Under the pieces are notes generated by a model. The model was given only the letters and a program-made list of their open reading frames with translations. It had not been told where the DNA came from and made no database searches. A stretch of DNA of 64,000 nt from Balanoglossus misakiensis (Eukaryota; Animalia; Hemichordata): assembly GCA_040954595.2 (NCBI GenBank), contig CM082595.2, forward strand, positions 6,412,137-6,476,136, in the 5' to 3' direction. Shown here piece after piece: positions 10,918-39,764 of this stretch. Both the position numbers and the translations under genes were made by a program. Numbering within the stretch: the first letter of the stretch is position 1; each line of letters starts with the position of its first letter.

Positions 10918-11199
10918 ATAAAAGTCTCTACTGCCTAGCCACGCGAGATCTTGTATGGTCTCATAGAGTTCGGAAAATAGTCTATTGATGAGGAAATTTT
11001 GGATCCATTCCGAAAAGTTACTGAACTGCTTCTTTCCAAATTTGTTATACCGGTACTAAAAAAAAAGATAGAGAAATAGAGCGTTCCTTGTATTTTAGCA
11101 CTGCAGTAAAACTGTAATGTTTTCTTCCCAGATCCCAAATCTACATGTATTCTCAAAATTGTGTATTCTTGACTCTCTGAAACAAATAGCGCCATACTT

Positions 11200-11268
11200 T
11201 CCTTAAACAAAATACTCATACACAACCAACAATGCAGTGCTCATGTCAAAATCACACAAAACTTTATT
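11200..11268 (-). terminator. Putative polyadenylation signal of the neuropeptide mRNA
   Basis: AATAAA on the minus strand (TTTATT at 11263-11268), ~490 nt after the stop, followed by a GU/U-rich stretch (ttgttggttgtgtatgagtattttgttt). An alternative ATTAAA lies at 11659-11654. Confidence 0.6.
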
Positions 11269-11760
11269 TCCGACTAAACGAAATCAAAATGTCAAGCCAG
11301 TTATACTTAACGGAAAATTCCCATTCGAAATTCATTAGTCTGTGTATATTCTCGACAAATCAAACCAACATCAAGAAATTCTCGTATAATCAGAAATATG
11401 TACACCATGTAAAATACTATATTCTGTTACCATTATGCATATATTGAAATCATAACGCCAACAGAAACACCTCATCAGGCAACAGTGCGCCTGCGCCGAC
11501 CTTAAGTCTGGCTGTGAGGGTGCATTGGTTCGAACAGGTGCAAGAGTGGTAGTTAACAATTAACTTTTATGCTAAGACACTATTTTCACGAATCTATCAT
11601 CTTTGTTATCGAGATCAATCAATTCTGTGAAGAATTGCTTTTGTTCTGCAAACTTTAATCTATCCAAGAAAGCCTCTGTGGTAAGAAAATAAAATTTGGG
11701 GGTTGTAGTGAAAGGCCATCACGAATATTTCGATACGAAGTGCAATACTTGGGATATGTG

Positions 11761-13206
11761 TTATTCGTCTGCGTTTTCTTCGTCTGGTAACGATCTCTTT
11801 TCTTCTTCTCTCTTACCGAGAACGTCGAATCCTCCGACACCGAAATCTGGCTTGGCTTTCTTTCCTAAGACATCAAACCCTCCAACACCGAAATCGGGCT
11901 TAGCTTTCTTTCCGAGAACGTCGAATCCTCCGACACCAAAATCGGGCTTAGCTTTCTTGCCGAGAACGTCGAAGCCACCAACACCGAAATCTGGTTTAGC
12001 TTTCTTGCCGAGAACGTCGAAGCCACCAACACCGAAATCTGGTTTAGCTTTCTTTCCAAGGACATCAAACCCTCCAACGCCGAAATCGGGCTTAGCTTTC
12101 TTGCCGAGAACATCGAAGCCACCAACACCAAAATCGGGCTTAGCTTTCTTGCCAAGAACGTCAAATCCTCCTACACCGAAATCTGGTTTAGCTTTCTTGC
12201 CGAGAACGTCGAAGCCACCAACACCGAAATCGGGCTTAGCTTTCTTGCCGAGAACGTCGAATCCTCCGACACCGAAATCGGGCTTAGCTTTCTTGCCGAG
12301 AACGTCGAATCCTCCGACACCGAAATCGGGCTTAGCTTTCTTGCCGAGAACGTCAAATCCTCCTACACCGAAATCTGGTTTAGCTTTCTTGCCGAGAACG
12401 TCGAATCCTCCGACACCGAAATCTGGTTTAGCTTTCTTGCCGAGAACGTCAAATCCTCCAACACCGAAATCTGGTTTAGCTTTCTTGCCGAGAACGTCGA
12501 ATCCTCCGACACCGAAATCGGGCTTAGCTTTCTTGCCGAGAACGTCAAATCCTCCTACACCGAAATCTGGTTTAGCTTTCTTGCCGAGAACGTCGAAGCC
12601 ACCAACACCGAAATCTGGTTTAGCTTTCTTTCCAAGGACATCAAACCCTCCAACACCGAAATCTGGTTTAGCTTTCTTGCCGAGAACGTCGAATCCTCCG
12701 ACACCGAAATCGGGCTTAGCTTTCTTGCCGAGAACATCAAATCCTCCGACACCGAAATCTGGCTTGGCCTTCTTTCCGAGAACGTCAAATCCTCCGACAC
12801 CGAAATCAGGCTTAGCTTTCTTTCCAAGGACATCAAACCCTCCAACACCGAAATCTGGTTTAGCTTTCTTGCCGAGAACGTCAAACCCTCCTACACCAAA
12901 ATCGGGCTTAGCTTTCTTGCCGAGAACGTCAAATCCTCCGACACCGAAATCTGGCTTGGCCTTCTTTCCGAGAACGTCAAACCCTCCAACGCCGAAATCT
13001 GGCTTGGCTTTCTTTTCTCCTTCAAATCTCCTCCTCTTTCCTCTACTGGCGCTTATTCTTTTCCCAGTTCCCCTGCAGTAAAACCCAATGGTTTCAAGTT
13101 GAAAGTCAAAGCATGGCTGTGATCGTCGTTTGCTTATTTGATGTGGTTCTGTTTCCGATCTCAGATTGTTCACGTGATTTTTCAATGAATCTGTTAGACT
13201 TCTTTT
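11761..13206 (-). CDS. Neuropeptide precursor, main coding exon: 25x AKPDFGVGGFDVL-amide, one Cys-bridged peptide and spacers (481 aa; full precursor ~504 aa)
   Basis: Part of ORF 11761..13212. Preceded on the minus strand by a polypyrimidine tract and acceptor (ctttttctttttggcttttgcAG|AAA AGA), so the track's TTG 'start' is intronic. Peptides are bounded by KK/KR/KRR sites with Gly amide donors, the C-terminal tail is acidic (EEEKRSLPDEENADE) and the stop is TAA at 11763-11761. Confidence 0.93.
   Translation of the reverse strand, partial: KRSLTDSLKNHVNNLRSETEPHQISKRRSQPCFDFQLETIGFYCRGTGKRISASRGKRRRFEGEKKAKPDFGVGGFDVLGKKAKPDFGVGGFDVLGKKAKPDFGVGGFDVLGKKAKPDFGVGGFDVLGKKAKPDFGVGGFDVLGKKAKPDFGVGGFDVLGKKAKPDFGVGGFDVLGKKAKPDFGVGGFDVLGKKAKPDFGVGGFDVLGKKAKPDFGVGGFDVLGKKAKPDFGVGGFDVLGKKAKPDFGVGGFDVLGKKAKPDFGVGGFDVLGKKAKPDFGVGGFDVLGKKAKPDFGVGGFDVLGKKAKPDFGVGGFDVLGKKAKPDFGVGGFDVLGKKAKPDFGVGGFDVLGKKAKPDFGVGGFDVLGKKAKPDFGVGGFDVLGKKAKPDFGVGGFDVLGKKAKPDFGVGGFDVLGKKAKPDFGVGGFDVLGKKAKPDFGVGGFDVLGKKAKPDFGVGGFDVLGKREEEKRSLPDEENADE
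11809..13008 (-). repeat. Coding 48-bp tandem repeat, 25 units, with a 4-unit (192-bp) higher-order pattern
   Basis: 400 aa = 25 x 16 aa. Units differ at synonymous positions only, except the last, which ends KR. Diagnostic variants recur at 192-bp spacing: 'ctacacc' at 12171/12363/12555 and 'ggcttggcc' at 12761/12953. Confidence 0.95.
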
Positions 13207-13245
13207 CTGCAAAAGCCAAAAAGAAAAAGTTCAGATTAATATAAG

Positions 13246-13291
13246 ATAATGTAATATAATGTAATGTAATGTAATGTAATATAATATAATG
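13246..13291. repeat. (GTAAT/ATAAT)n pentanucleotide microsatellite just upstream of the splice acceptor
   Basis: Direct reading. Confidence 0.85.
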
Positions 13292-13346
13292 TTGCCTTGA
13301 GTAAAATATGATAAAAGTTTAAGACTTTGATTTTTTATGGTACATA

Positions 13347-13555
13347 CTGTAAAACACTTTATTTTCGCGAGTTTAAATTTTCGCGATATCCAGAGAGACC
13401 ACTGTTTCGCGAGTATTAATTTTTGCGCTCTCTTATTTCATTCACTGCATCGTTGTATTTTTAAAAAAGTGTACGCGACTTTTTATTTTCACACTATTTT
13501 GGCTCTCGCGTATTTCGTGAAAATTTATTGCTCGCGAAAATAAAGTGTTTTACAG
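13347..13555. mobile_element. 209-bp MITE with perfect 25-bp TIRs and TA flanks (Tc1/mariner-like non-autonomous element)
   Basis: TA|CTGTAAAACACTTTATTTTCGCGAG ... CTCGCGAAAATAAAGTGTTTTACAG|TA, with internal repeated TTCGCG motifs. Confidence 0.88.
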
Positions 13556-14868
13556 TACTACCTTAAATCAAAATATTTTCCAGTTGGTTTTGGAAGTGGG
13601 CGAAAAGGCATGCCCCATGCTTTCGTAAGAACATTTATATTTATGGCCTGGTGTGTAAACGAGCAGCCACTTGCCATTCTGGTACCAGGTTGATAAATGG
13701 CGGGCAAATGACCAATTGAGACCTCATTTGGACTACCGTTTTTTCGAGTGTTTTGTCTCATCAAGCTGTGCAAACAACTCTGCACTTTGCTTTCGCGAAC
13801 AGTTGCAAGTGGCCACAGTTATTGAATTCTTTGTTTCACGTCCTCTCAAAAAAAGTTTCACAGTTTTTGCGAGCCAACGAGCTAAACCATGTGGCCACAA
13901 TGATTGAATGTACTGCGTTTGCCAACAAACCGTACACCCGTTGCTAACAAACAGTTCAGCATGTATTAATTTGCACCTTCTGATATAAAAGGAGTTAACA
14001 CTAGTAAGCATAATGCCCGCATATGGTTAAAAAGTCATGTCAAAGTCTTAGCTGACCTATGTTGGTGGTCTTTTTATGTATGCCACCCAAATAAAATTCT
14101 GTGGTTCGTTAATTCCTCTTTAGTTGTGATGAAATTTGCATGCGTGATCATATTCACAGATGATTCTATCCATCACTTTATTTGGGGTGTTCACCAAGAA
14201 AACATAAAGGTGTCATGTATGCTTCTTGGCCGTCTACATTAATCGAACAAAACAAACTGAACATCGCGATTGAGTCGTGACTATAAAACTCGAAGGCAGT
14301 GCTTACTCATTCGCGATCCATTACTGCAAAGATCGCACCGGAGGTCGTTGTGCAGAGGCTCTTAAAAGAAACACTATACAATCACAAATATAGGCATCCA
14401 CTCTACTGAATTGCTAATGTTCAGGTTTCTAGTCTGAAAACAAAAATAGATATCATCGCGCAACATATTTTGGCGAAAAGGACTTTGTAATGGCTTGTGA
14501 TGACATTAATGTGCTTTCCGATGCAATTTTATTCACATCTGCGTCTTGATACCAATATTACTGTTTTGGATAAGACGCTGATCCTGAACTAACAATTTAC
14601 GTCTTTCCGATAAAGTTTGTTTCGGTCTGTCGCACTTTGTAAAAGCACGTGCAGTACTAGAATGCAGTGAAGTGTCCGACAGGAATTGTCAGTCAAGACA
14701 TGTAGGTTGTTTATTGGCTTATATCCGGCGTTCAAATAATGTGATCGTTGATACTAACTTACTCATGCGAGCGTCGCGACATAACCTACATTTGGATAAA
14801 AAATACTGATTGTCAGTGCTATGTATAGGCACGTTTATCCATATCCATTGCTTATTATGGTCGGCAAA

Positions 14869-14899
<31 letters not shown>

Positions 14900-14905
14900 T
14901 TGTTG
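14869..14905. repeat. (GTT)n microsatellite
   Basis: Direct reading. Confidence 0.9.
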
Positions 14906-17900
14906 AGAGCCTCTTGGTATAATATACAGGGTCAGACAAGCATTGTCTTCGTTTGTCATCAATTGAATTGAATTGAAATGAATACTCCACCACGACACTG
15001 ATATTTCCTATTGCAGTGTGAGTCTCATGAAAGGACACTTCTAATCTGAAATAGAATATGGCGCTCACGAATCAATTTCCGGATTTCAAGTTGGCTTAAT
15101 CATTGACAATGCGCCTCTACTGTCTCTGTGACTTAATCTGTGCTGCCGTGTATGTCCTGTACACATCACGAGCAGCAAAACAACGAGCTGTATACGGTCA
15201 TGCCATTAAGCACTGGAAGGGCGCGTTGACAGTCTTGGAAATGTTTTCAAAGGAAAGCAGGTTTCAGCTGACGGGCATATCATTTTGATCAAGCGCGTCT
15301 AACATTGCTCATTTACAACGATAAATTGTCACACCTGATGACCTGCTATTGATTTGTAAAGCAGACATGTCATCGAGGCTGAGCTGGAGACGTCTCAGTA
15401 ACGCGAGTTGTCTGGGACTGGAATTGTGACCTGTATCTATCGCACCCGTGTGGTTTGGTGAAGGGAATCTTTTCACGACAACTTGACGTGTGTTGAAGTT
15501 TCCATGAGTGGAGTTGATTAGCAGATGTGGCAGTCAAGTGGCCTCTTTTCGGTTAAGCCATCGTGTGCCTGTTTCTGTCTGCCTTGCGCACAAGTCAACC
15601 AAAACTGACATATGTTCTGCACGAGACCCTGCAAGATTTCGTGTGGCTAGGCAATTTACACATGTGATCAATTTCATGACAGAGGACAATGTAACACAGG
15701 AAAAACAATACCTGGCCCATTGTGTTCAACGGCTAAAAAGTTACAATTTTATTGTTAAACTCTCCTCCTATATTCTACTTTCATACAAAGCTTGATTATA
15801 TTTACTAGATACCAACCCGCTGCTATGACAACTGACCAAATCTCGCGAGATCTCGCAATGAGCGAAAATGGTCTATTTATAGTACCTGAGATTCTCCGTC
15901 GGTGATGAAAATATGAACTTGAGGGTACACAGCATGTGGTCTGCACTAATCTATGGGTACTGCGCAGTGCATTTTTCAGAACCGGGAAAACAAATATACC
16001 GACACTTAGTCCGCTACTGTGCAAACTCTAACTACATGCAGAGTGCTGTTGGGTTGGTTACCTTGGTTTCTAAATCATTTTTCGCGGCCATGGTCGTTCA
16101 CAACTAGTTTTTATTGGAAATAGAACCAGATGGTCGTAAATTAGAAATAATTGTTCGGGACTTTGTACTTAAATTTGAATCGACAATACAATATCACAAT
16201 TTTTCAATCACATAAATAGTCTGCAAAGCCCAAAACCAGACAAATGACGAACTTTCTCCAGGTGTTGATCGCGACAACGATATGCATCATGGCGACATCT
16301 TGTGTTGAACGTTGGGGGAGGGATAGAATAGAGACAATGAACTGTCGTCAGCCTTCTTTTCCCCCTATTTTCTACTTTAATCGATTAATTTGTGAATGAC
16401 GGATGCAAGTCAGTCAGCCACTTTCCCACTGCAGATGTCTTTGCACGACAAAATTAAACCTATTGAAATTTTTTACAAAACAACTAAAAAGTCAAAACTG
16501 ACGGAAAATCAATTTCGGCTATTCGTTTGAGTCGCTTGCGGGAAGAGCTTCTAAATTAACACGGACTCCTAAAGCCGGCAGTCTTTTATGGAACATGTTT
16601 TCGCGAATCAATTTGAAAGAAACGACTACGCGAGAAGAACCTTGTCTTTTACAGAATTATTTTGTAATAATCCTTGGTTTGAGGGAAAAATGAAAATATA
16701 AGACAGCCTTTTCAGTTTCGCGTGTACATCTAAAAAATACCTACATGGATGGACGAAATCTGATTTGAAGTGCTTTTATGGGTATTAGGATAAAACTAAT
16801 ATACAAAATTGTCGCTCGGTAAACGAACCGAGTAATTTCCGTTGGGTTTGACCGATAAGCAGCCATGCTGAAATGGAATTATCTTTCAAGGATAGACGCC
16901 ATTATGAAACAGGGAATTCTGGGAATTCCCAAACATTTCTATCTTGTATGTTTTTGGGAAGCAACCAGGGCATTGATCTTTTATTTATACTATACTGTTA
17001 ATCATGGCAACAGACATTATGGTGTGTTGTTTTCCCCATAAAATAGTCTGGGCTCTGTGTTTATTGCTTTAAAGACTTTGCTAATGAGAACACTCCTCAC
17101 ATTCATATTTAAAATGGCCGCCAAACTAGTTGTTAATTCAATAGGAAAACTCATTTGTTGATAACGAATAAAAAGAGGTGAACATTTTATTGTATTAGCC
17201 TTTAATGGTTTAGAACAAGCTACAATGTTATAGCCAATAGGCGGAAGAATTACTAATTAATAATTCTCAGTTGCATTTCCTGTATCAAAGGTAGTAAATT
17301 GTTCAACCATAGTGTTCATGTTCGTGGTATTCGGATTGGAGGTGACGCGACAGGAAATATTTAAAAATTAATCTGAATGTGATTCTGCTCTGACGCCGAG
17401 AAGGTCAGCCAAGACTTTGTTTGACAAATCCTGGCAAATTCTCATGCGTTTTAGTTTTGTAACATTATACATCCTTTAAAAGGCCAATACTGTGTGGTCT
17501 TGTTTGAACACATGCCCAAGTTCCTATTGACATTGCCAGACGTGTAAAAGCGTTCAATATTTGACTGCGAACTTTTGCAATTGTGGTTTGGTTTGTTTTC
17601 GTGACCTGTGCGAATTGTAAGATCACGGCTGAACGCAAGCCGGATAATTGAAATTTCCGGTCTGCTTGCTCCAACCATACACATTCTCTGTTCTGACTAC
17701 ACGTACTTACAATATATAACCAGTGGCGCTATTTCTTGCCACTTTACACTTATTTGCCTGGGAGTCTGTTTGTTCAGGTTTTCCCACCTATCAACATAAT
17801 GTACACTTCCAATTTCACGTAATTGACTAGACAACATAGCTGACTTTACAAAGTACATGTATTTGCAGCACTGACTATAATCTTTGTCACAGCACTTAGA

Positions 17901-17958
17901 CATTACGCACAGATTCAGTGGCATAGAATTACACATTACGATGTCCAAGTAATTTGCA

Positions 17959-17979
17959 TAGATAGATAGATAGACAGAA

Positions 17980-18045
<66 letters not shown>

Positions 18046-18061
18046 TATTAGACAGATAGAT
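17959..18061. repeat. (GATA)n microsatellite
   Basis: Direct reading. Confidence 0.96.
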
Positions 18062-21000
18062 TATCTTTTCATGGAATGTTAACCTTTAGCTCCTGTACAC
18101 TGGTGTACGTCACTTTATTCTGTTACTTCTACATCTGTGTTAAAATGTAATAATGGTGATGCTTCTCTCTGTTTCGGAAGAATAGTCTAATGGCTCGATT
18201 GTGATCAGATGGCAAGCAGATACAATCGCTACCGACGTTGCACACATTGCCTCATCTGGCGAGTCAGGCAGCGTTGACGAGGAAAAAACACATTCCCAGA
18301 GTGGACTAAATGGAAGAGTTTAATCATAGTAGATAATGCTTGGATGATTGCCCGACTTTCTAAACATAGGTGCATTACTGAACATAAATCCCCTGATTGC
18401 AGGTCACATGAACATACATATGTTCAAGGGTCAGTGATCTCTGGAAAAATGAAGTCAGCCGACAGTAAATGTATGAAGTAACAGAATAGAAGCATGTCGA
18501 AATTTTTCATTCAAATATCTACATTTGTAACGTTCACTTTTGTTACATTTTGCGTGATTTGATAGCTAATCATAACATATTTCACCAATATAGTCCATGC
18601 ATGTTGCTTTTCCAACTATTCTTACTCACCCTGTGGGGGTTTGAGCAGACAAGGATAAAATTTAGCCGCATGCTTCAACCAAACCAAGTGAAGTTGTTAC
18701 ACCACACCCATCTGCATGTGCGTGTACATGCGGTCAACCCCACTAAAGTGTGAAAATAATTAATGTTTTTTACGGCAATGAATATTCTCTGTGTACAGTA
18801 TAATTACAAACCAACGTCCTAGTGTAGCATATTGTGTGTTACCATCAAATTTCCATGTAAATTAAAATCACAGAATCGCGGATCTTCAAGCCTTGTGTTC
18901 GACAGTATCATTTATGTTTAGTTTACAAATCTTGCGGTTTAATTTGACCGTCTGAGTTACTATAAGATGTGGTTATTATTCCCACCCTGATATAATATAC
19001 ATTTGTAGCGCCCATGTACCCTATAGCACCACTTAGATAAGCAGGAAATAATGCAAAAAATCATGAATAATATTAGGCCTATGCCTGAAATATTAATCAG
19101 ATGTATCATAGCGTAACCTATCAATTCCCAGAAAAAGCATAAACCTGAAATTAGTATGAAAATACATTGATTAAAAAAATAGTTTAGTTTAATGATTCAT
19201 ATAGAATGCGTCTATTATGTTCATGTTAACACTTTCAAAAAATGAGTATAACAAATTGAATATTCTCTTCAATTTTAGAATTTCATGTGACCAAACATGT
19301 TAATTTAGCACGTGAATTCGTAACATGGTCACAGAATATTTGTCTACTATTTATCCGAATTTTATAAAACAGACAAATTAATCATGTGAGGCTATGATCA
19401 TTGGTGAGCAATGTTTAAAGAGGCGGTAGCTGTAACTCTTTGTTTTCCTTTTTGCTTGGGAACAAATACAATGCTTCATTCTGCCTTGTAAACATATCAA
19501 TATTCTAAATATTTTACTTGGTTTAATTTGCATATAGCCAATAGGGTTACTGGTGTGATGACATGTGACTTGGAGTCTAGGAATTCATATGTATTCATGT
19601 TTACATGATGGGTTAAAGACAGATTTGGTGTTTAAGCATGTTTTAGGGAACAGATAAAATACATCAAAAAGAGGAATTTTGTTCCGTAGGCCGGCAAGGG
19701 TGCAAATTAAAGCGTCCTTCCAAAACCCTATCAACTCTACTGAAACCATCATAGCAATGCAGTGTCTTTGTTGCCATAGCAGTGAGCGTGCAACAGAAGC
19801 TCTACCAGTAACCATCCTCATTAAGGGTATTTTGCGAAGCTCTAAATTTTGTTTCAAAAGCATGTTTATTCATTATTAAGATGGGGAGATGTCACATCTG
19901 TCCATGACCTTTGACCAACAAAGAGCTACTCAGGACTTCCCTACCTCTACAACCAAACCGATGAAAATCCATAAATTTTGATCATGGCAAGTTTAAAACC
20001 AGGGAATGATCTTTCATCAATGAAAATGTGCCATTTATCCTATAATATCATAAGTGATGACCTTCGCATTTGGGTGTTATATTCTTTTGTATTTTATTTT
20101 GGTTTTATTTCATTTTTTAATTCATAATTATTCTTTGTAATAGTCTTACTAATTAGCGTCGTAATACTGACCTGAAATATAATTTAGCGCTGCTGTCCGC
20201 GTGTTCGTGTTCAGTGATATGGTCTGATCTGTTCTGGACTGGACGAGACACTTAATGGTTTTAATCGCTTTGAAGCAATCAGTGATTTACACGGACCACA
20301 TTCTGCGCTTTTCTTTAAATATTAATGAAAGCTGTTCGTGTATTAATTAATTTTTAATGACGTAACTCCACGTAATATCTTGTGTTTTTGACAAATGCAT
20401 ATTTTATTGAATGAATTGAAACTCCTGGGAATGGCGGCAATATCAAATGAAACAAATCCTAACTACAAGACAATAAATAGATCGTGAAAAGTTCGTTTTG
20501 CAATTGAAACTCGCATTGTATTCATAAGAAAAAACGATGATATATTTTGATATTTGATGGTTTTGATTTCCATTTAATATTTTACCCAGTATGCAATAAA
20601 GATGTCCAATTTGACAATCACCTCGAAGGTAGCCAATTGTGTACACTATGGAAAAATTTAAAGCAATGGTTGCCTGGTGACGGTGTAATGGTTGCAAATT
20701 AGTTCCAATATCGGTCAAGAACACCGGTGCCAGACAAAAATGCAGAGGCATAACTTCCCGCCAAAACCGGATAGAAGGCTAAACGATAGCCCGCATTTGC
20801 CCTTCTCTGTGATTCGAAGTGCCAGTGATGGCTAATTGTCACACAAAATAGAAAATCACACATTTTCAGGTCGTCGGCACGCCTATAATCCAAGTACAGT
20901 ACATTTTATCCTCTAGGTTCGTTCAGACAAGCCCACAACTTAACCTTTCGAAATTAAGCTGCCTCAAAAGACAAGCGGATCAGCCGTGTGTTTGAAGGGT

Positions 21001-22768
21001 AATTCGCTGACAAATTGACCACTACACTTAAGTCATTACACGCTCTCCTATATTACTCCTCAAGTGTCTTTTAGCTTTGAAGTGAATAACATGTGTAAAT
21101 CACGCATGGAGTATCTGATGTGTTCTACTCAACTTTGTTTGCCGTCGTGTGCCTACATCTGGCTCGCTGCCGATGTATTAAAAATACATGAATCTTATTT
21201 CTCGGGATGTAGAAAGCCCTTAAATTTCTAAGCGTCTTGTCAATTTCATCCGGAGTTTCACGGGAAAGGGAAATATGCCTTTCTGAATCGCCACTTTCTG
21301 AGAGCTTTATAACTTTCAAAAAGGAAAATTCAATTCAGCATTAGCTGTTAATCTTTAATCTTCGCCAAATACACAAAGAGATACCGTACGTTTCTTAGAG
21401 ATGACTCGGTATACTCTCTTTCGGTTTAATGACGCGAAAAGCCGGATGAACTTCTCCTCGCAAGCCGATAGGATTTCCTATAATGTAATTTTTTTTAAAT
21501 TCATTTTTTTTATTTATTTACTGAAGATCGTTTTGCCGCAAGATATTTTTTCATCCCTGCCACTCAAACTTTTCCTTTCATCACCTTTTTTGATTGAAAA
21601 ATGCTCTGAAACTGGTATTGTGGTGGGATTTTTGAAAGATGCCATTTTTGATGTAAACACCATGACGGCAGGATGTTCCATCTGGCTACTGCGAATCTGA
21701 GTTGTCGTTCTTTCTGTTGGTTCTTTGCTCGGCCGTGCAACCCAGTACCCAAGAATGTAACACATAGGCGGTACCTCCCCTACTGTTTTCCTAGTACAAT
21801 TTTACCGCCAAAACTGTAACAAAATTTCTCGTTGGGTCGATAAATTCACACAGTATGGTACCTATTCGAGATAGGGACATTTATAACCTGAAAATTCATC
21901 ATTGCGGTCCAAAATAAACCACCCAACCATACAGTTTGCGCAAAACGATTTTCTAATAACCAAATTGCTTATTATTAAAAATCATTACAATACGTTATCT
22001 GGGGACAGTGATATTAATGGAAGAAATCTGCTTTATTATCTCCAAAATTGAATAGTAAATTATTCATATTTTGCTTCTCAATTGCCAACATTAAGCAAGA
22101 AAGACTCTTGAGCTAAATAGATTATAATTCAGCCCCCACTGCGCGAGATAACAGTATAGGTAAGAACAACGTGTATTGTTCTAATACAGATATACAAATC
22201 AGTGGGAATAAAGTAGAGGAATGATGGATTTCTGCTTTGATTAGGTGAATTTGGCAAGAAATACTAATGTATAATTTCAAGTTCCAGCTGGATGGTAATA
22301 TCTGGATCTTACCTTTTTATGACAATCATGATCTATGGGCCATGAAATGTGGGCTTTTTCAACTTTTGACTGTACAAAGCCAAAACGTCAAAACTAAGAT
22401 TATGAGAAATATCGCCTAGAAAGGTAGCAGACTGATATCATTCAGAATGTAAAAAATGTTTTTTGACTCTTGATAGCAGAACAAAAAATCAGTTATCGTA
22501 TCGAAACGTTTTGATATCGCCGACGGCTTGATTTATTATACACTTAAAATGCTTTTTACTTCGCAGATGTGCGTTTCTATGACAACATTTCCATTTTAAT
22601 GTACCACCTAGTGAGAACTCGGGCTGGACCTCTGCGGTAATGGGGCTGCCTCGGCCGAAGAGAAAATTCATCCACGGCTGGCCCACGCACTGCGTTCAAG
22701 TGACATCAAATTCACTTACAATGGTAGGTGTATTGCATTGAGAATAGTCGAGATGGCTGAAAACTTAC

Positions 22769-22837
22769 CGCTTTTTCTTCGTCGGCTTTGGTTACGAAGA
22801 TCACACAGGCTAACGATAGGACGAGTAGAATTTTCAT
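22769..22837 (-). CDS. Neuropeptide precursor, coding exon 1 (signal peptide): MKILLVLSLACVIFVTKADEEKA
   Basis: Reverse complement reads gaagATG AAA ATT CTA CTC GTC CTA TCG TTA GCC TGT GTG ATC TTC GTA ACC AAA GCC GAC GAA GAA AAA GCG|GTAAGT. It has A at -3, a basic N-region, a hydrophobic core, a T-K-A cleavage context and a consensus GTAAGT donor (22768-22763) in phase 0, matching the phase-0 acceptor at 13206. The join of the two exons is inferred. Confidence 0.85.
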
Positions 22838-22894
22838 CTTCGCTTCACTGCGGGTGGACGTCGATGCGACGTCGTCTCTGTACTGTAGGGCCCA

Positions 22895-23085
22895 CTAATG
22901 CGTATGGCTGGACAACCACGTCCGGTTGCTATTTAACCCTCCTCCTGCGAAGTGAACAAACAGAGCACTTATGAGTGTCACGCTCACAAGACGAGAAACA
23001 AAGTGGTGGCGCGGTTTTAATTAGAGTGATATTTGAATAGGGAATTTCGCCTGGGCGGCCGCGGTAATTTAACATGCAAATGTCC
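22895..23085 (-). promoter_or_regulatory. Putative core promoter of the neuropeptide gene
   Basis: TATA-like TTAAATAG on the minus strand at 22936-22929, ~95 nt upstream of the ATG (implied TSS ~22895-22905). A GC-rich GGGCGG lies near 23053 and an octamer ATGCAAAT at 23074-23081. Motif-level evidence only. Confidence 0.5.
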
Positions 23086-26000
23086 TGTAGTCGGTGACGA
23101 AAACGGATGCACTTGAGCAGGAAACAGACGGGGAAGTCGTCAACGGTGAGAGGAGAAATTCAAATAAGGATTGTTTTTAGAAGTATTGTTTTGGCACACG
23201 TCCATCAATCCATCACTCACTTGATGTCCACAGCGGTCTAAACGTTGCCACTTCCAGCGGACGGGGCAGAAAAAAATGCCCAGAAAAACCCTGAGCGCGC
23301 GTGGACGACTTAAGTGGTATTAATAGGTCGACCAATATTAGTTCAGTGCTCGCAGAGGAGGTGGCCCGGCTGTGCGCAGGCTCCTAATGACTGGCTGAAT
23401 TCATTTTCAGATCAAATATAGTGCCATCTTATAGTCTGCGTTACGACAGCAAATCGATTTCCCCGACAGTGTCATACACATCACTCACTGTTCAAGTCGT
23501 CAGCGTTGGGCGTGGCTTATAATCAGCATATGCCCCACCTAGCGATGAAGCCTGATATTGTACATTCTCTGCTAACGACGTTGCTGTATGGTTGTTATAT
23601 TGACCCCCCCCCCCCCCACCCACCCACTGCAATATGCTCATGCCAGTGGAGATATGTCTTCCAGGAACTCTTAATACACGTCAACAATTTCCAAAAGCGG
23701 GCATTTCAAAGCTATGATATTCAAATTTCTTCTAAATACGACCCCAGTAGATTGCACTGGACGGCAGCTGACTTCACAAACATGGAAAACTACACCATCC
23801 TGAGTTTACAATTCCCTCATTTGACAAACTTGAGAAGAAGGATTACCGCAACAGAAACCGTTAAAACCACATCTCACTGCTAGCAGCAAATAAATGTTCG
23901 TCTGTTAATCAAAATCTGCGATTTGGCATATTAATATGACTATCGACTCGGTTATGGCACGAACACCAGCTTTGCCGGCACGCGCAGAAAAAAAAGACAT
24001 ATTCAAACAGAGAATCATTCCTTCAACACAAGATAATAATTTGAGGTGTCAAATCAGTTTTGTGCCGTGTAGCACTTTGAAGAAACTGGTATAGTGATAG
24101 TAATATATAGTTTTCAGTGATCAGGATGGTTTTAAATTTTTCTGTCCATGTTGTGTAAATCTTATATGGAAAAACAATAGGGGCAGCAAGCGTAAATATG
24201 TAAGTTCATCCTTCTTGTGCGTTTAGACCTAAAATGATTTTGTGCCATATAATGACTTGTTGCACCGATCACAGTGGAGAGACAGATTGTATGAGAAACA
24301 TGAGATTCAAATATGTGTGACTGTAGCAGTAACAAGGAATACTTATTAGCTTAACAATGCGTCTCATAATACAGATCAAAGTAAAGCGGTAAAAATTATT
24401 TGTCTGGGGAGTTTTAAAATAATGTGCTTGTCTTGGCACGTGTTAAAACGTGTGCGGCCCTTTTTTCTCGGTACGCTCGCGCATTAATACCGCCCCGAGA
24501 TAATCGCTGATGTATCCTTCCGCGAAGAAAATTGGCGGATAGTTGCACGAATTTGTGGGATAGGGGAATTTTTCGTGAAAAATCATCCTTTCCTGTGATA
24601 ATAGCAAGGCTGGTTTCAAGTATTATAGTTTTGCTTATCAACATTACTCTACAGTTGGCAATCTTCCACGCCTTAGTTCTTCGAGTTTAAAGAACCATAA
24701 TGGCTTAAGTGACGTGAACAGCAACCATTTTATCTCAAGATAGTGCCCTAACAGTGCAAGTTATGAGGGAGTTAACATCTTAACTATATTTAATGTCATG
24801 TTTGATACACACTTGGTATATCTCCCCTGAACGCGCATGCTTTAATCGAGTGGTTTGTAAAACAATCTCTCTTCAAATCCCTCGCCGTCTTCACCCACGT
24901 GGCAACTATCGATCGGAAATTACCTTTATTACGCATTCAGTCTGCACAACGGCAAGGTTAACACACTCAACTCGCTGTGTCAAAACTTAGCCGCTATGAT
25001 TTGTCTTTGACGTTGTTCATGATATTGTTTAATCGAATGAAATAAAATGTTAATTTAGTCGCTCTCATAACTCCATTGATCAGTTGACCTTGTTTCTATT
25101 TTATTTTGTGGAAACATTGCGCGGTTAATGATATTCTTTCAAAATATTGATTTCGGGGGAATTATTCATCATTTTCGTGGTGTAAATTATTCATTGTGAA
25201 ATTAATATTCGGAAAGGGACGGTTGGGCGTTTCGAAAATCTGGAAAACGAGATCTATTTTGTATTTCTGTATAGTGCTGTCCGGAGTACGATAGAAAATG
25301 TATCGATGTACATAAGCACAGGTTCAATGCCACAAACCCCTACCCTTCACCATTAGCCAGAACTAGCTACGACAACCACGACTTCTAGAAATTGCCGGCA
25401 ATATCTGCACTTAAGGACAGGAAAAAGGGTGGTATTTTTAACAGGTCGGATACTCGGAACACGATCCACTCGAAGCTACTTCTTGCCAACCTCAACAATA
25501 TCCGATATTAGGGAAGAAATTAAACTTTACCATTGGCGAATTAATCCTGCGCTGTGCATGACAACTAAAAACGTACATGCCTGGAGGTTACAGGACAGTA
25601 TTACTTAAGTGGAGGAAATATTAGTATGACGGGGGCAGTCGTCTCTCTAGTCACATTATTGCTGGAGTAATTTTACATCAATTAAAACAAAGTTGGAGGC
25701 ATAAGGCTTGCGACTTCCATGTTCAAAGGTTTCCTTTGTGGGTGGTCGTGCCAATGGTTTCCGTCGTTTGTAAAGTTGCCTTGAAAAAAATTAATTGAAA
25801 GGTATTCAGAGACCGAATTCCAAAAAACATCATTCTAATGTGATATGTGAACTGTGCATTCAAAAGTTGCTTGCAGAATTTAAAGTTGTTGTTTGTTCTT
25901 GAGTAATGTCGCGAAAGAATACACATGTCTAACTTTCGAGGTAAAACCTCCACTTGGATAGTTTAAGAAGAAAATAGTTCATGATGTTATAGGGTATATT

Positions 26001-26159
26001 TTGATTTATACATTACGACTCTAAGTAAACAAACGTAGATTAATGTTCGTTAAAGAGCGGACTTGTTAAGTACACTGGAGTGCAACAAGGATCAATATTC
26101 TTGTTTTACATGTTTTACTTCTAAATTTTATGGGTTTCTTGCAGTGGCAACGATGAACG

Positions 26160-26480
26160 GTCGTTGCCAAGTGTCCAGTGGCTTCATTTTGTACGGTGGC
26201 CTAAGGTGCCAACTTTACTGCAAACCAGACAATATGGCCGCCTTGTGATAATGTCTATGGTACATTCGTTGCCAAGTGTCGCATGGTTGCATTTACCATA
26301 CACTATAAGCCAAAGGGTCAAGTTCACTGAAAACCGGACAATAAAATGGTCGCACAGTGATAATAATTATTATGCTGCATTCATAGCCGAGTGTTTTATG
26401 TCTACATATACCACAGATTTTTAGCCAAAGGTATCAGCTTCACCAAAAACTGGACAATATGGCAGCATAATGATAATTGT
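26160..26480. repeat. Degenerate ~105-115-bp tandem repeat, about 3 copies
   Basis: TCGTTGCCAAGTGTC occurs twice and AAAC(C/T)(A/G)GACAATA..TGG..GC....TGATAAT three times. Confidence 0.65.
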
Positions 26481-29400
26481 TGATTCTGAACTTGCAGATC
26501 TCATTAACTCACAATCATTTCAAAAATAGAATTCCCAAAGTGAACACCGAACCAAATAAAACAACATAACCCGGATACAATTTTCACCAGGCTTGTTTTC
26601 GAACTGTTTGGATTGAAATGAATGGGAACTCTCGTGAGGTTTTGCAAATGTTGCTGAACTGAATAACCAAGAGATGCAAAGACCATACATGCATATTCAC
26701 CTAAGATCGAAACCAGTCTGACAGCGAGAACAATACTTGGAAAAATTCACCGTAAATTCGTTGATAGTGATATCAAAGGGAAAGAAATTATCCATTGTTT
26801 ACCAAAACTACATCAAATTTTTTGTATTATGATGGAATGAAATTAACATACCCAAATGTCACGCCCGAAATAGAAATGAATTTTTCTGCGCGAGTCCACA
26901 CAAGTTGCCGTTTCTAGGAATTTATTGATAAAATTCATCCCGAAATGCAACATAATAGTTGTTCGGAGTTAACAATATAAACTCATTTTCCTCAGATGTG
27001 TATGAATATTAGAATTCTGATAGCGAATCAAAGTCTATTTAATCTTAAAATAGGGTGAGAGTGTTACTTTGTGTTTGAGTAAGCCTTTTATGTCACACTG
27101 GCGTGCCGTATCGCTATATATCCGTGATGTTAAGACGGGAAGGGTCAATTTTCCATTAACCCCGTATTTTCCCTGTGCAGCGCGGGACACTGTATTGTTA
27201 TCAACATACATGTATTTGTTTTCACTGCACTTTTCTGAAGCTCATGGCTGTTCTCTCTTTTGATCACCGCTCTTCTGCTTGCTGTCCACACACCCTGGTG
27301 TCAGCCGACGCTCTACTTTCTGTCATTAAATTTATTCATTAGTTTCTTGTCATACTTTACTGCTATATGTGTGTAACCGGAAAAGATTTACACGGATTTG
27401 ATGTTTTTAATTCTCAAAAAGTAATTAGAAGAAAGATTTAATTAAAATCTGACAAATCTTTTCCCCTAATTAGCATTGTCACTTAATAAGATAGATGATG
27501 TAACGTAATGAGCGAACTTCCCACTGTATGCTATAAAATCCTGTTAATCTTGAGATTTTATCTGTCAGACATAACTGATTGATATAATTTAAATGACAGG
27601 AATACAAAAGTGTCTATACAGCTTGGTTGTTTGCGAAGCTTCCGCAGGATGGCGGGTAACTCCCGAAAAGTATGTGCACATGCGCGGTTTCGCGGTTCCT
27701 GATCATGTTGCTGAACTAAATAAAAGCACCACACAGGAAAAGAAATTTAAAAATAAGAAACATATTTCCTAAATTACTAATTAGCTACTATAAAAGTAGA
27801 ATAATTGGTACAGGCGCCTGTTTTGAGAAATCTTAAAAATTTGTAAATGAGCAAAACTCAAAAAAATGAGCGGATGTTGAATGGTTCTCCCATTGCCAAT
27901 TTCCGGCTTATGGGACTGCGGTTTAGACCAAACTAGACTATCACAAGACAGGCGGCGGTGTACTTATCACAGTATAGTCTTGTCAAATAACCAGGACGCA
28001 TATGCCCTATTACATCTCTGGAAACAAATTGACATTGGTTACGACATACGAAGGTGTTTGCATAACAGATAATACTTGACAGTTGGTTTTATTAGGGTAC
28101 TTAAATACCGCTCTGAAACCAGGAAGGTTACTCCCCCTCCCCCAAATCCCTTTCCACACACTTATCACTTCAGTTAGAGATAGGATTGACATACAGTGGT
28201 ACAGGGGGTGACTCTCCTTGGACTGTGGCCGCTCCAATGCAATAGCCTGCCCCCATCTTTTTTTCACTGAGCAAATTATGTATTTATCAATAAACGGCCG
28301 TGACGAGGTCAAACAACAATGCGTTTCATTAGTGCTAGAGGTGTGGATTTCCTTCGTCAACATTAATTAAGGTTTGATACACAAGAAAGCGCTTGTTTGT
28401 ACGCTACTCAACGGGTCAACATCCTGAAACGTCATGAATACTATAATGTCCATATTCGAACTAATTGGTTTCGCGGCTGAATAATAACAAGTATGTGGAG
28501 TACATCACGATATTGCCAAAATGATAATTCATACACACACAAAAACTTAACAGTACGATATATAGGCATTTCTCAAAAGTCTATCTGTATCTGTTTTCTC
28601 TGCAGGAGACACCATGGCGACATCGCCGAGGTCGGCATGGCAACCGCGAAGAATGCACGGTGAGTTTCCGCGCGCTCTCAGAAAATTTAAATGCCTCGTC
28701 ATTGTCCAGCGAGACAAAGGCGCGATCCACTGGTTGTGGCTGACAGATATCTGTCACAGTTTCCACACTGGTTGCGTTTTATGTGGCTTTCTACTGGGAA
28801 TTTGAAAAGTGTACGAGTTGTAGAGTTGTTCGAGTAGTAGTGAAAGGGTGTGCGCAAGACTGCGAGTTAAGCCTGAAGAGTTACTTGTTTTGATGAAAAT
28901 TTCACATATTTAAAGGCGCAAATTAAGTCTTTATCAATTTTTACAATAGTAAATTGATTAACTTCATGAAGATTTCAATGGAAAACAGAAGCTTTGCACT
29001 AGACAAATTTTCAGTATCCCCCCCCCTTACCTTCATCAGTTGTCCAGTTTATTAGAATTGCGCTAAAATGTAAAAATCCCGGTTCACCGATACGTTCGCA
29101 AAGGGCGAGGTTAGATGAGTCTTTTGTCAGTTGCAGTAATTTCAAGTTCATTAACCTTTGAAATGTATGAATAGCTTCTAACAAATTCCGCGAATAATAT
29201 ACACACCCATTTCTTCGCAAAGAGGTGGATCTGCCCCATATAAAAATTAATTTCAGCATTATAATTGAGGAAATTTATAATTATAAACCCTTTGTGTAAA
29301 CGCCAGTAGAAGGACTTGTGGCGTCATCCCGGAATTTGATTAAAATCACGATAAAGACACAAAACAATTCATCAATAAATACTTAACGGGTACTTTAAAG

Positions 29401-32400
29401 ATCCTGCTTATTTCCTGCCCTCGCGTCAACAGTACCCTACGTACATCATCGACATTTAGTGTTATTTATGGATAATTTTAAACGATCATGTGAGTGGTGA
29501 TGGTTTCAATGTGACCCATGCCTTATAAATGAAAGAAGAGCATTAAAGGTGCATCTTCTATAAGAGCAAATTTATTTATGAATAATTCATTAGCAAACAA
29601 AGGTTTGGCACTCCATAAACATTTAATGTCAACAAGAAATGATGCGAGAACCAGGGACGGAAAATTGCTTCGTTATTTGTGAAAGATAATGTAAATGTGT
29701 GTTTAATATTAATCTGCCTGAGGTTTACTTATTTGTCGAAAAAAACTAAGCTAGTGGTTGCCTGTTATACTGGGATATGTTAAAACCTTCAGTCGGATTC
29801 AAAACAAGCTAGACTCCCTTGTCCTGGAACTTGAAAGCATCGGACATGTCATTGTCCACTCAGTGAAGCTCGGGATGGGTTTCTCAGTTGTCAATCAACT
29901 TTACCAGCTGGGAAGGTATTCAAGGGCGTCGTTGACACTCACTCAATCTGTTTTGCATATTAAATAACTGCATATCCAACGGCTGTTACGTCAAGAGGCC
30001 TAGCATGGCTAATATGCGCTCCATCTTGAATAATAGGGCATAGAGTGCCCTATTACGCATATATGAAGTGCACACACCTGCCCCTGTTATTAATTTGTTA
30101 TGGCTAGACCATTATGGTCATCTCATAAAAACGGAGTACGTTTTTCTAGTCATTGAACAATTTTAAAAGACTGGTTCGAGATTGGACTAGAAAATTTGGA
30201 CTTAACGTTTGGTCATAACTTCATGAGAGATTATAGAGGTGCATAATGAAAGTACTGTGTCCTTTAAACTAAAGTCAATGTTTCAGTGTTCGCTTTGCTC
30301 TCATAATAGCATGGACTAATTTTTTTTTGATAAGTCTGAATTTGTGCGGCCCCGCCTACATGTTGATCAAACATTCGGTGACAGCTTTTGTCAAATTAGG
30401 TAATATCAGCTCCTGACGTCAACGCCATAATAAAAACCAGCCAATCAGGTAGAATAAGGCGCGGTGTTCCGTAAGTAAGATCGTGCGCAGGAAAGTGCTC
30501 CAATAGAAACCTTGTACGTATTCTGCCCTATGATTGGCCGAATCACTATCACGTGAGGTGCATTTTGCGAAGACATATGCAACGAGCGTTGTATCGGTTT
30601 TGGAACGGTCACCTGGCCACTTGGAAACTAACTGCGCATGTGCACGCCAGATAAAACGAATAGAAATCTAGCTGCCCAAGTGTGGTGCAGGAGATCCCGC
30701 AGATATTCTGACTAGTAGTATAAACCCACAGGGTTGTGATACAAACAACATGTTCACATTCAAGATACAATATGACAGCTGTCTCCCCTCGTGCCCCCAC
30801 ACACACCTGTCTCCCAACAGTCTGTTTACCCAGGCCACAGGCGTCATTGAAATTTTCCTCGAGATATTGCCACTCAGCAACAGAACAAACTGTCTCATTC
30901 CCGCGTGAAATTGACGGGTTTTCTGTGGTAAATTGTTGACTTTCCCTCCGGGAGACAACTGTACACTGTTACACTCATTGTCAGTCAATATATGTGTATA
31001 AATACCGCCCGAAGTAGCAACAAATTTGACAACTTACCCTTGTTTGAAATACTGCACTGCTTACGTCATTGTAAATTTGCTAAATTCAAATAATGTATGG
31101 TAATATAGCAAGCTATATTTAACACAATGGGTTTTCATAAAACAATAACCCCACCTAATTCTTCTACATATGGGGATATGACTTGCTTCATACAAAGGGG
31201 ACAGTGCTTCATATGAATCGGTCTCATGAATTTGGTTGAATGCAAAATTTCTAAATTGCGCGTGTAAGTGCAGTCGTGTAGCCCAATCAGAATGAACTCA
31301 AAAAGAGTGGATTGCAGTACCCTATCAGGGATCTGCCACTAATGGCCCGCATGTACCAGAGTGATCGTTAGTGTAAAAAGAGAAATAGCGAGGCAAGCTG
31401 AGGCCGCGGGAACCGCGATCGTGCTCAGCAAATTAGTAATGGTAGTCCTTAGGTGTAAACACACCTTCCTACCCCCAAGAGGCAATTAGGGTGTCCGCCT
31501 TTGAGTGCAACGTGGTGTTCTCTGCGTGTGAATAATGCAGTCGTGTTTTGATACTCAGAAAGAATACTGTATGCTTCTCCACCAATCTGGCTAATTTTTT
31601 TGCGTGCGTCTATGCACCAGGCGCGGTTATCAGAAAAGTTATACACGCGTTCTACTTAATGCTGTTTTATTGTGACTTAAACCTGCACTGCCTGCTTGTG
31701 CAAAATCAGAGTGGTGGTTTTAACTGCCCAATTTCTCGTTCCACAAGTAACATACGCATATTTGAGGGGAAAAATATATTACATCGAAACTACAGCTTTC
31801 TTTCATTTGTATGTGACAATACCGAAGCCCAAAAGAAGCCTGAAATGTTAAAGTTGAAAATCCAGAAAAGAAGAACGGATTCGTTCTGGTGTAAGAGCAC
31901 ATAAAATTGATGAGTTTTTGTGTGTCAAAAATTAACGTTAAAGGAACTTAGAGCTAATTCGTCATCTGAAAGGCATTTATGTGGTTGTGCTTTTGGTTAT
32001 TTGGTTATGATTGTGGCCTTAAAAGTATTGGTGCTTTATAGCACATAGTCTGGCTGAACTGGTCATGTGACAACTGAATGTAATATTCAGTATTTATTAA
32101 TGTAAAATGGAAAATGATGCCTTAAGGCAAGAGTTAACTTAAAAATTAATGACAGTTAACTGGATTTTGGTATATTTAAGCGAATTTCCAAAGATTAATA
32201 ACCGACTTTTGCCATTTCTATTGTTTCCGGTCCGCAATAATACAAACATAATTGCGTTTACCTTAGGTAAATGAAAAATGACAGAGAAAACTTCATTAAA
32301 ACCCTGAGCATGGTTTTCAATCATTTATAGGTATACAGTCACCTATCTTAACCCACATTTAACCACAGTTACCATGGACATTTGAGATTTAACCAATCAC

Positions 32401-38400: not shown

Positions 38401-38940
38401 CGACCATTTGTAAACCAACCCAACCTCACGTTCACAATGGCATGTTTCACGTGACTGAGTGACAAGGCGGTAATTATTCGCTCTCCGACCAAATCTATGA
38501 GAAATTTACACTCCGTCACTGCATTGAGTAATGAACTTCTTAATTTATTAATGTGAACAAAATCCACCCAGGAAACCAGCTCAAACCAGCGGCGTGTAGA
38601 TGGTTATTAAATGTAAACCGATAAATATTATCTTCCATCTATCAGGTTCATATTGCTAATGCATCCTTCCAGGTTAAATTTTAATAATGAATGTGAAGAA
38701 AAACTCAAGCGACGTCTTTCGCGTGTCACATACACCAATGCTCAAACTTCGGGTATTGTCAGATTGATAATTTATGATTTACCGAGTCAGTATATTGCTT
38801 GGTCAGGTTCTCACAATATCGAAGGCAAGCGTACTGTAACTGAATTTACTAGCAGTGTAAGTCCAAACAGTTGGTAACTAAGAGAAAATTCCCTATCGCT
38901 GAAAATCTTGAAATGGAAAGGCGAGTACTTTTGATTTTTC

Positions 38941-39764
38941 TAGTATGAACCGCTATTGCGATAAATTTGTTTTGAAAAAGATTGCATACAGTGTGTTTTA
39001 TGGCATTGAACTTGGATACTGTCAAGGACCTTCATTCTGTAAAGATGTGCTGCCGAGCTATATTTTCGATTATGATATTTTCTCTGTCGTTTGGCCAGAA
39101 TGCCAGGCCTGGTGTTTGAAGCACGATGACAAATTGGACAATTTTGTTATCGGACAGGATGTTTTTTGTGAGTCCAGCGACATCATTTGCGAGAGGTACA
39201 TCATTACCAGAACTACATAATTTGTTGTTGGTATACTGTGAGTGATAACAATAATTCTCCACGGGGTCAGTATTGCACCAACTTACATTTTCGTTCCAAG
39301 TCATTGTGACGAGAATTCGTCTGCTATTAAACACATAACAGATGCGCTCACCAGGCAATACAAACGATCATTATCCAGCTGTCCCTAAATATCAAAAATT
39401 GCCTTCTTCCGTCGAAATCGCTAATTTCCATTTAAGCAGCTATATCGGTTGCAATGCCCCATTTCCCCTTAGAAAGTACATCGCACTGAATGGTTTTGTT
39501 GGTGATTTTGCTGTGAAAAATCATTGCCCTTCGTCGATCGTTAATTGGGTTGGAGTCAACAAACTTGAAATTGCGCATCTCCCTCCAATTTGATTCGCCA
39601 TGCGTCGGACCACAACTGATCTGCTGACAATTGAGCATCGAGATGCAAATTGATCGTTTTGGGCACGACACTCTCATTGTAGGCGCGCGACTAATTGAAG
39701 ACATCCGCAGTTGCTCAAAAATGGTTGTAGGCGTTAGTATCGGGGTCCCTTTCACCAGGCGCAC
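38941..39764 (-). pseudogene. Possible decayed SGNH/PC-esterase (CASD1/TBL-like) coding remnant
   Basis: Ordered minus-strand fragments across frames: CDVLSKGKW / LQP-YSC, then FLIFRDS (39398-39378, cf. IxFxGDS), NDVPLANDVAGL, VIVLQTPG and MKVLDS...THC. It contains multiple stops and frameshifts, and the resemblance is by eye only. Confidence 0.28.

What the first reader, a model, noticed from the sequence alone, without database searches (positions are those of the whole stretch)
11809..13008. 25 copies of AKPDFGVGGFDVL-amide: possible truncated, amidated relative of pedal peptide/orcokinin-type peptides
Seen: 25 identical 13-mers, each followed by G and KK (KR for the last). Recalled from the literature: starfish myorelaxant peptide FGKGGAYDPLSAGFTD and related FGGKGAFDPLSAGFTD are multi-copy, non-amidated pedal peptide/orcokinin-type peptides. 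The core here, FGVGG-FDVL, aligns with their N-terminal FGxGG(A)[YF]DPL but lacks the SAGF tail and gains amidation. The internal DFGV-G also echoes the allatostatin-A/buccalin xFGL-amide motif, but no cleavage site follows it. The family assignment is inference; it may be a new family.
Basis: partly seen in the sequence, partly recalled or inferred. Interest (0 to 1): 0.8.

Follow-up and report, generated by a model that had tools for sequence, protein, structure and literature searches.

The report
Tail-less pedal-peptide-like neuropeptide gene
A real, spliced animal gene encodes 25 identical copies of a short peptide that is predicted to be cut out and amidated as a nerve signal, and that is likely a shortened offshoot of the pedal peptide/orcokinin family, lacking the end piece that known members carry.

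Summary
Observation confirmed: 25 identical AKPDFGVGGFDVL-G-KK units (last KR), minus strand, with almost purely synonymous DNA variation. They sit in exon 3 of a 40-kb, three-exon gene. One public contig joins a non-coding exon (51808-51672), a signal-peptide exon (22944-22769) and the array exon at GT-AG sites. No orthologue turned up in protein, Pfam or literature searches. The best resemblance is to crinoid pedal peptide/orcokinin (PP/OK) peptides, not starfish ones: same GG-hydrophobic-D-x-L-G core (18 of 24 crinoid copies; shuffle frequency 0.0003, chosen after the fact), but without the six-residue aromatic tail, a defining feature. So it is not filed as a member; descent from PP/OK is about even odds. 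Amidation is not new to the family. The animal is not identified by any search. If it is an acorn worm (recalled repeat families only), this could fill a gap where PP/OK peptides were reported missing, and may be the orthologue of the Saccoglossus VIamide/VLamide precursor, whose sequence I could not see.

The parts
51829..51916 (-). Likely core promoter: TATATAAA starting at 51836, octamer ATGCAAAT at 51887, reversed CCAAT at 51916
   Evidence: Function untested.
51672..51808 (-). Exon 1, non-coding (no ATG); GTAAGT donor at 51671
   Evidence: Loose end of run X2 contig maps uniquely to 51675 onward (two letters differ from the window further along); 5' limit inferred from 134 loose letters.
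22945..51671 (-). Intron 1, 28,727 bases, GT-AG
22769..22944 (-). Exon 2: 107 bases of 5' UTR, first ATG at 22837, 23 codons: predicted 18-residue signal peptide plus 5 residues; phase-0 GTAAGT donor at 22768
   Evidence: hydropathy 2.2-3.4 over residues 1-16; no SignalP available; run X2 contig covers 22769-22947 only
13207..22768 (-). Intron 2, 9,562 bases, GT-AG, phase 0, between signal-peptide exon and peptide exon
   Evidence: Loose end of the X2 contig equals window 13177-13206 exactly, one match in the window
11263..13206 (-). Exon 3: 481 codons, stop at 11763-11761, about 500 bases of 3' UTR
13057..13122 (-). Single two-cysteine peptide SQPCFDFQLETIGFYCRGT followed by G-KR and preceded by KRR; predicted disulphide loop (C-x11-C) and amide
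   Evidence: Read from the translation; processing inferred; no relative found
13039..13056 (-). Short ISASR-G between KR and KRRR; possible minor amidated pentapeptide or spacer
   Evidence: inferred
11809..13008 (-). Array of 25 x 48-base units, each AKPDFGVGGFDVL-G-KK (last KR)
11761..11808 (-). Acidic C-terminal tail with one KR site, and TAA stop
   Evidence: covered by X2 contigs 11263-11802 and 11773-11830
11263..11268 (-). AATAAA, likely polyadenylation signal
   Evidence: X2 contig ends at 11263 while DNA contigs of X1 and X3 go on (one study only, weak hint)

Best explanation
This is a spliced three-exon gene for a 504-residue protein that is predicted to be secreted and cut into 25 copies of an amidated 13-residue neuropeptide plus one two-cysteine amidated peptide, and the 13-mer is likely a tail-less offshoot of echinoderm-type pedal peptide/orcokinin peptides. 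Shown: exons, splicing, reading frame, selection on the peptide. Inferred from established precursor biology: the signal peptide routes it to secretory vesicles, prohormone convertase cuts at KK/KR, carboxypeptidase trims the basic residues and PAM turns the Gly into an amide. Inferred origin: an ancestral unit like the crinoid one (aromatic-x-x-GG-hydrophobic-D-x-L-G, six-residue aromatic tail ending in G, KR) lost the tail between the two glycines, so that the core Gly became the amide donor, and unequal crossing-over spread the short unit through the array. Inferred action: a high-dose neuromodulator of muscle or cilia through a receptor not yet known, as for PP/OK peptides.
For: Splicing at both GT-AG junctions in one contig, with no intron cover. 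Signal-peptide-like start, first ATG, phase-0 join. 25 identical peptides from 18 DNA variants. Crinoid PP/OK peptides: 18 of 24 copies in two species carry GG-[MLI]-D-x-L-G, all 24 carry hydrophobic-D-x-L-G followed by six residues ending in G-KR (my count); best gap-free match 6 of 10. Starfish and sea-cucumber PPs: 8 of 10 peptides seen fit FG-x3/4-hydrophobic-D-x-L (my count). Shuffle frequency of these motifs in the 13-mer: 0.0003, 0.00007 with the N-terminal aromatic, 0.0007. The only neuropeptide precursor among 10 weak hits in 1.84 billion proteins is a snail precursor of PP-type peptides, aligning its F-D-x-I-G core on F-D-V-L-G.
Against: The C-terminal aromatic residue, described as conserved and important for activity, is absent; x in D-x-L is Val, not Pro or Thr (Met occurs once). 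The motifs were written after seeing the peptide and many families were considered, so the shuffle values overstate the case. The snail hit is out of register with the cleavage sites, ranks 5th among unrelated 16-residue-period repeats, and per unit is not significant against 21 stored protostome units (P 0.07 best register, 0.14 in register). The AKPD start and the two-cysteine peptide have no counterpart in the PP/OK precursors I saw. No orthologue, no neighbouring gene for synteny, no peptide or tissue evidence. KK sites are less usual than KR (recalled). The spliced run is labelled 'DNA?' by the tool and is one sample.
Confidence: 0.5

Rival explanations
1. A lineage-specific multi-copy neuropeptide family (for instance the hemichordate VIamide/VLamide type) with no PP/OK ancestry; the likeness is convergence among Gly- and Phe-rich short peptides.
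For: No hit to any PP/OK precursor in register. Defining tail absent. Authors note convergent C-terminal likeness to pedal peptides in a brittle-star precursor. S. kowalevskii has a precursor named VIamide / VLamide (VIG, IVG) of no assigned family.
Against: Gap-free 6-of-10 match to crinoid PP/OK and low shuffle frequencies. The VIamide sequence was not seen, and it could itself be PP-derived.
Confidence: 0.35
2. A divergent allatostatin-A/buccalin-type precursor: many copies, Leu-amide end, internal D-F-G-hydrophobic-G-G.
For: Snail buccalin-like peptides (family name recalled) have D-x-F-G-F-x-G-G-I-amide, echoing the internal DFGVGGF; both are amidated and highly repeated.
Against: The amide here sits three residues further on; the G-[LI]-amide end is absent (motif recalled). 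No such precursor among the hits.
Confidence: 0.07
3. A protostome-type pedal-peptide array whose cleavage site moved (circular permutation of the 16-residue unit), or a full-length protostome PP1 that lost its N-terminal F-D.
For: Same 16-residue period as the snail precursor; best alignment is shifted by 8 residues. Phoronid PP1 peptides end in G-F-D-S-F-G-KR, in register with G-F-D-V-L-G-KK (shuffle frequency 0.003).
Against: Neither register is significant against stored units; the N-terminal hydrophobic-D-x-I hallmark is missing at the peptide start.
Confidence: 0.06
4. Not a neuropeptide gene: a minisatellite, assembly artefact, or the plus-strand Pro/Ser-rich open frame is the real product.
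For: A 462-codon open frame exists on the plus strand.
Against: Synonymous-only variation in the minus frame, 5 different units in the plus frame; spliced contig with minus-strand GT-AG sites and a signal-peptide exon.
Confidence: 0.02

Closest known systems
Crinoid PP/OK-type precursors (Florometra serratissima, Anneissia japonica; PMC9793003 section 30 and supplement passages)
   Same: Signal peptide, spacer, tandem dibasic-flanked copies (12 each); N-terminal aromatic; GG-hydrophobic-D-x-L-G core; Gly before the basic pair (amidation)
   Different: Crinoid peptides carry six more residues with Tyr/Phe after the core Gly, mostly start aromatic-Pro, vary between copies and use KR; here no tail, AKPD start, 25 identical copies, KK, and an extra two-cysteine peptide
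Starfish myorelaxant peptide and ArPPLN1; sea-cucumber AjPPLN2 (PMC5069636, PMC6586643 passages)
   Same: FG-x3/4-hydrophobic-D-x-L; multi-copy precursor of similar size (426 residues, 19 copies in Patiria); AjPPLN2 amidated
   Different: D-P-L rather than D-V-L; tail with Phe or other residues present; starfish forms not amidated
Lophotrochozoan pedal peptide 1 (Biomphalaria P0006; phoronid PedalPep1 in PMC8557429 supplement passages)
   Same: 16-residue period in P0006; F-D-x-[IL]-G word; phoronid C-terminus G-F-D-x-F-amide
   Different: Their F-D-x-I lies at the peptide start, here at the end; match not significant per unit
Saccoglossus kowalevskii VIamide / VLamide (VIG, IVG), EST G826P5251RB11 (PMC10508912 passages and S1 Table)
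   Same: Name implies a V-[IL]-amide end, as here; precursor of no assigned family
   Different: Sequence not seen, so identity is untested
Echinoderm MCH-type peptides, for the two-cysteine peptide only
   Same: P-C-hydrophobic-D-aromatic ... Y-C resembles crinoid MCH; Arg after the second Cys as in other echinoderms
   Different: 11 rather than 10 residues between cysteines; no Met/Ile after the first Cys, no Trp-Arg or basic residue before the second; N-terminal rather than C-terminal in the precursor

Membership tests
Multi-copy neuropeptide precursor (general kind) | N-terminal signal peptide | tested here: met
   Basic residue, hydrophobic core, small residues at -3/-1 in exon 2; hydropathy only, no SignalP
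Multi-copy neuropeptide precursor (general kind) | Repeated peptides between dibasic sites, Gly amide donor, selection on the peptide | tested here: met
Multi-copy neuropeptide precursor (general kind) | Spliced transcript | tested here: met
   Run X2 contig joins three exons; run labelled 'DNA?' by the tool, read as RNA by inference
Multi-copy neuropeptide precursor (general kind) | Mature peptide in neurons | not testable with these tools
   Needs mass spectrometry and in situ hybridisation
PP/OK, echinoderm type | Phe near the N-terminus | tested here: met
   Phe5, same spacing to the core as in sea-cucumber and one crinoid peptide
PP/OK, echinoderm type | Asp-X-Leu core with X = Pro or Thr | tested here: inconclusive
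   D-V-L: Asp and Leu kept, X is Val; one crinoid copy has Met
PP/OK, all types | Aromatic residue near the C-terminus, after the core | tested here: not met
   Peptide ends at the core Leu-amide
PP/OK, all types | Precursor clusters with PP/OK precursors by sequence | tested here: inconclusive
   One weak, out-of-register hit to a snail PP precursor among unrelated repeats; echinoderm precursors were not held as sequences, so no clustering was run
PP/OK, all types | Shared intron position and synteny | not testable with these tools
   No genome held, no neighbouring gene found; the same 5' UTR intron plus phase-0 intron layout occurs in F-type SALMFamide genes, so it does not discriminate
PP/OK, all types | Shared receptor | not testable with these tools
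   Receptor stated unknown in 2018; one search listed 2 papers, the 2024 one not read
PP, protostome type | x-hydrophobic-D-x-I at the peptide start | tested here: not met
   pattern taken from stored proteins P0006, P0030-P0034
Allatostatin-A / buccalin | C-terminal aromatic-x-(x)-G-[LI]-amide (recalled) | tested here: not met
MCH type (two-cysteine peptide) | Met/Ile after first Cys, basic residue penultimate to second Cys, C-terminal position | tested here: not met
   Phe after the first Cys, Phe penultimate, N-terminal position

The most novel reading that the evidence does not exclude
This is the missing hemichordate pedal peptide/orcokinin gene: a six-residue deletion between two glycines cut the peptide down to the conserved core and made that core's glycine the amide donor, and the gene also gained or kept a disulphide-loop peptide. 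It would be a natural minimal ligand for a family with no known receptor, and would explain why searches missed the family in acorn worms.
Probability: 0.25. Interest if true: 0.72.

Novelty: new variant of a known kind. Interest (0 to 1): 0.5.

Why it matters
PP/OK peptides relax starfish muscle, their receptor was unknown as of 2018, and as of 2016 they had not been found in hemichordates or chordates. A strongly selected natural peptide that keeps the core but drops the tail thought essential tests what the family's active part is, and gives a ready ligand for receptor screens. If unrelated to PP/OK it is still an undescribed, abundant candidate neuropeptide plus an orphan cyclic peptide, which is useful but commonplace for a poorly studied invertebrate.

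Tried and rejected
Protein searches with the exon-3 protein: none of 7,999 candidates of 264-842 residues at E 0.01, none of 7,993 of 30-263 residues at E 0.1; longer proteins were not searched with that tool. HMMER over 1.84 billion representatives with a 130-residue piece: 10 hits, best E 9e-9; 9 are unrelated repeat proteins, including a beetle acaloleptin precursor. Pfam: only a spurious FapA_N sum over repeats with 0 passing stretches. ESM Atlas: no usable hit, which shows nothing. PDB sequences: 1 hit at E 0.19. Rfam: 0. 131 of 137 other open frames of 75 residues or more scanned (6 simple-repeat or overlapping low-complexity frames left out): 4 hits, all under Pfam's cut-off. Literature: 'GGFDVL' 0 papers; six further motifs, 3 unrelated papers; FDVLG 0 and FYCRG 0 in the PMC8557429 supplement; GFDVL 0 and PDFG 0 in the PMC9793003 supplements. 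Earlier scan notes: nothing that bears on this. Run search: no RNA holder listed by record. No genome held. PMC13554239, PMC6660194 and bioRxiv 10.1101/265579 passages held nothing on this family. Jekely 2013, Mirabeau and Joly 2013 and Kim 2018 were not held; their supplements, and figure alignments I could not see, may hold the Saccoglossus VIamide sequence or this peptide's relatives. The automatic scan for extra exons in intron 2 found none, in line with the direct join. Structure prediction was not run: it says little for short flexible peptides.

Full report
Observation. The array lies on the minus strand inside a stop-free frame 13230-11761. It holds exactly 25 copies of AKPDFGVGGFDVLG at a 48-base period from 13008 to 11809, 24 followed by KK and the last by KR. 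The 25 units are 18 different DNA sequences. Variation falls at 14 third positions and one first position; 19 of 21 distinct variant alleles are synonymous where 23.6% of single changes would be (P 1.6e-10, indicative because copies share ancestry), and the two exceptions are a Leu codon and the final Lys-to-Arg. Other frames give 5 to 17 different units. The peptide is therefore under purifying selection and the plus-strand open frame is its shadow.

The gene. A pyrimidine tract and CAG end at 13207. 9.6 kb upstream is an exon with the first ATG at 22837, a signal-peptide-like 23 codons and a phase-0 GTAAGT donor. Three public runs of one sample hold the region. In run X2 one 465-base contig covers 22769-22947 only; one loose end equals window 13177-13206 and the other maps uniquely from 51675, where another GTAAGT donor and, about 28 bases beyond the contig's inferred start, a TATA box lie. 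Runs X1 and X3 cover intron sequence there and show no such join. X2 also covers 11263-11830 and nothing from 9412 to 11247, ending at an AATAAA. The tool labels X2 'DNA?' as a guess; I infer it is a transcript library. The gene thus spans about 40.5 kb with introns of 28,727 and 9,562 bases and encodes 504 residues. Besides the 25 copies, exon 3 encodes a 23-residue spacer, one two-cysteine peptide with G-KR, a short ISASR-G, and an acidic tail.

How it likely works. From established precursor biology (recalled; the enzymes PC2 and PAM are described): secretion via the signal peptide, cleavage at dibasic sites, trimming, and amidation from Gly give 25 amidated 13-mers and one disulphide-loop amide per precursor. 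None of this is shown for this peptide. By analogy with PP/OK peptides, which relax starfish muscle and sea-cucumber intestine and regulate pedal muscle and cilia in molluscs, the likeliest role is modulation of muscle or cilia.

Relatives. No orthologue was found among 7,999 and 7,993 word-matched candidates or 1.84 billion representatives. Of the 10 weak hits, 9 are unrelated repeat proteins and one, ranked 5th, is a Biomphalaria precursor of pedal-peptide-type peptides (family name from my comparison and its hit to an 'orcokinin-like' protein). Its alignment puts the snail F-D-x-I-G on F-D-V-L-G and is out of register with the cleavage sites; per unit against 21 stored 16-residue units the score is not significant (P 0.07 and 0.14). 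This hit is weak evidence at best.

Comparison with PP/OK. [quoted passage not shown] The first is met, the second nearly, the third not. The closest match is crinoid: by my count 18 of 24 copies in two species have GG-[MLI]-D-x-L-G, and all 24 have six further residues ending in G-KR. The present peptide matches one of them at 6 of 10 positions without a gap and stops at the core Gly. Shuffles of the 13-mer give this core in 0.0003 of cases, 0.00007 with the upstream aromatic; the motifs were chosen after seeing the peptide and several families were tried, so this is suggestive only. Loss of the six residues between the two glycines would give this layout in one step; that is inference. Amidation is no departure: sea-cucumber PPs are amidated. 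Because a defining feature is absent I do not file it as a member; I put descent from PP/OK at about 0.5.

Other families. Allatostatin-A/buccalin fails at the amide end (motif recalled). The two-cysteine peptide partly resembles echinoderm MCH but fails its listed features. The intron layout matches F-type SALMFamide genes and is probably generic.

The animal. No call identifies it; the window holds no other recognisable gene and no genome is held. Dispersed repeats at 9285-9411, 10792-10914 and 61903-62130 remind me of enteropneust (acorn worm) genomes; this is recall, untested, perhaps 55-60% likely. It matters because PP/OK peptides were reported unfound in hemichordates in 2016; my searches listed no title announcing one, but I read only some of the listed papers. 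S. kowalevskii has an unassigned VIamide/VLamide precursor expressed in the anterior dorsal proboscis whose sequence is not in the table I read; it could be the orthologue, in which case the family is already named though undescribed.

Papers seen: passages of PMC5069636, PMC5814872, PMC6586643, PMC5818035, PMC5627052, PMC4772807, PMC10603993, PMC6660194, PMC13554239, 10.1101/265579; passages, section 30 and supplement passages of PMC9793003; passages, supplement passages and part 21 of 387 of the PMC8557429 supplement; passages and S1 Table of PMC10508912. No paper was read whole.

Verdict. A real, expressed, previously unmatched multi-copy neuropeptide gene; a new variant of a known kind; probably but not demonstrably a tail-less PP/OK offshoot. 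Interest 0.5.

Noticed in passing
window 9285-9411: A short repeat of very high copy number: thousands of contigs of all three runs pile on it. Likely a small non-autonomous transposon.
   Followed up: no
window 10792-10914 and 61903-62028: Two copies of a dispersed repeat, 86% alike over the matched parts (D6 and D7).
   Followed up: no
window 55019-55161; 56432-56682 with 60914-61164: A hairpin with 51-base arms 94% complementary, and an inverted pair of 251 bases 77% complementary 4.2 kb apart; MITE-like.
   Followed up: no
window 22802: A run X3 contig leaves the window sequence at a GATC inside exon 2; likely a proximity-ligation join rather than an insertion.
   Followed up: no
window 11830-11859: An X2 contig shows a further variant of a repeat unit with two changes, both synonymous by my reading.
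   Followed up: partly
window 1-64000: No other gene recognised in 64 kb: 131 of 137 open frames scanned against Pfam gave nothing above cut-off; the neuropeptide gene fills 40 kb of the window.
   Followed up: yes
not in the window: PMC9793003 supplement: Antedon PCNP4, listed there as an unassigned precursor, has the same first peptide and a near-identical N-terminus as the two crinoid PP/OK precursors, so it looks like the 'missing' Antedon PP/OK precursor.
   Followed up: no
not in the window: proteins P0012, P0013: Biomphalaria precursors of pedal-peptide-type peptides are named 'FMRF-amide neuropeptides' by their source.
   Followed up: no
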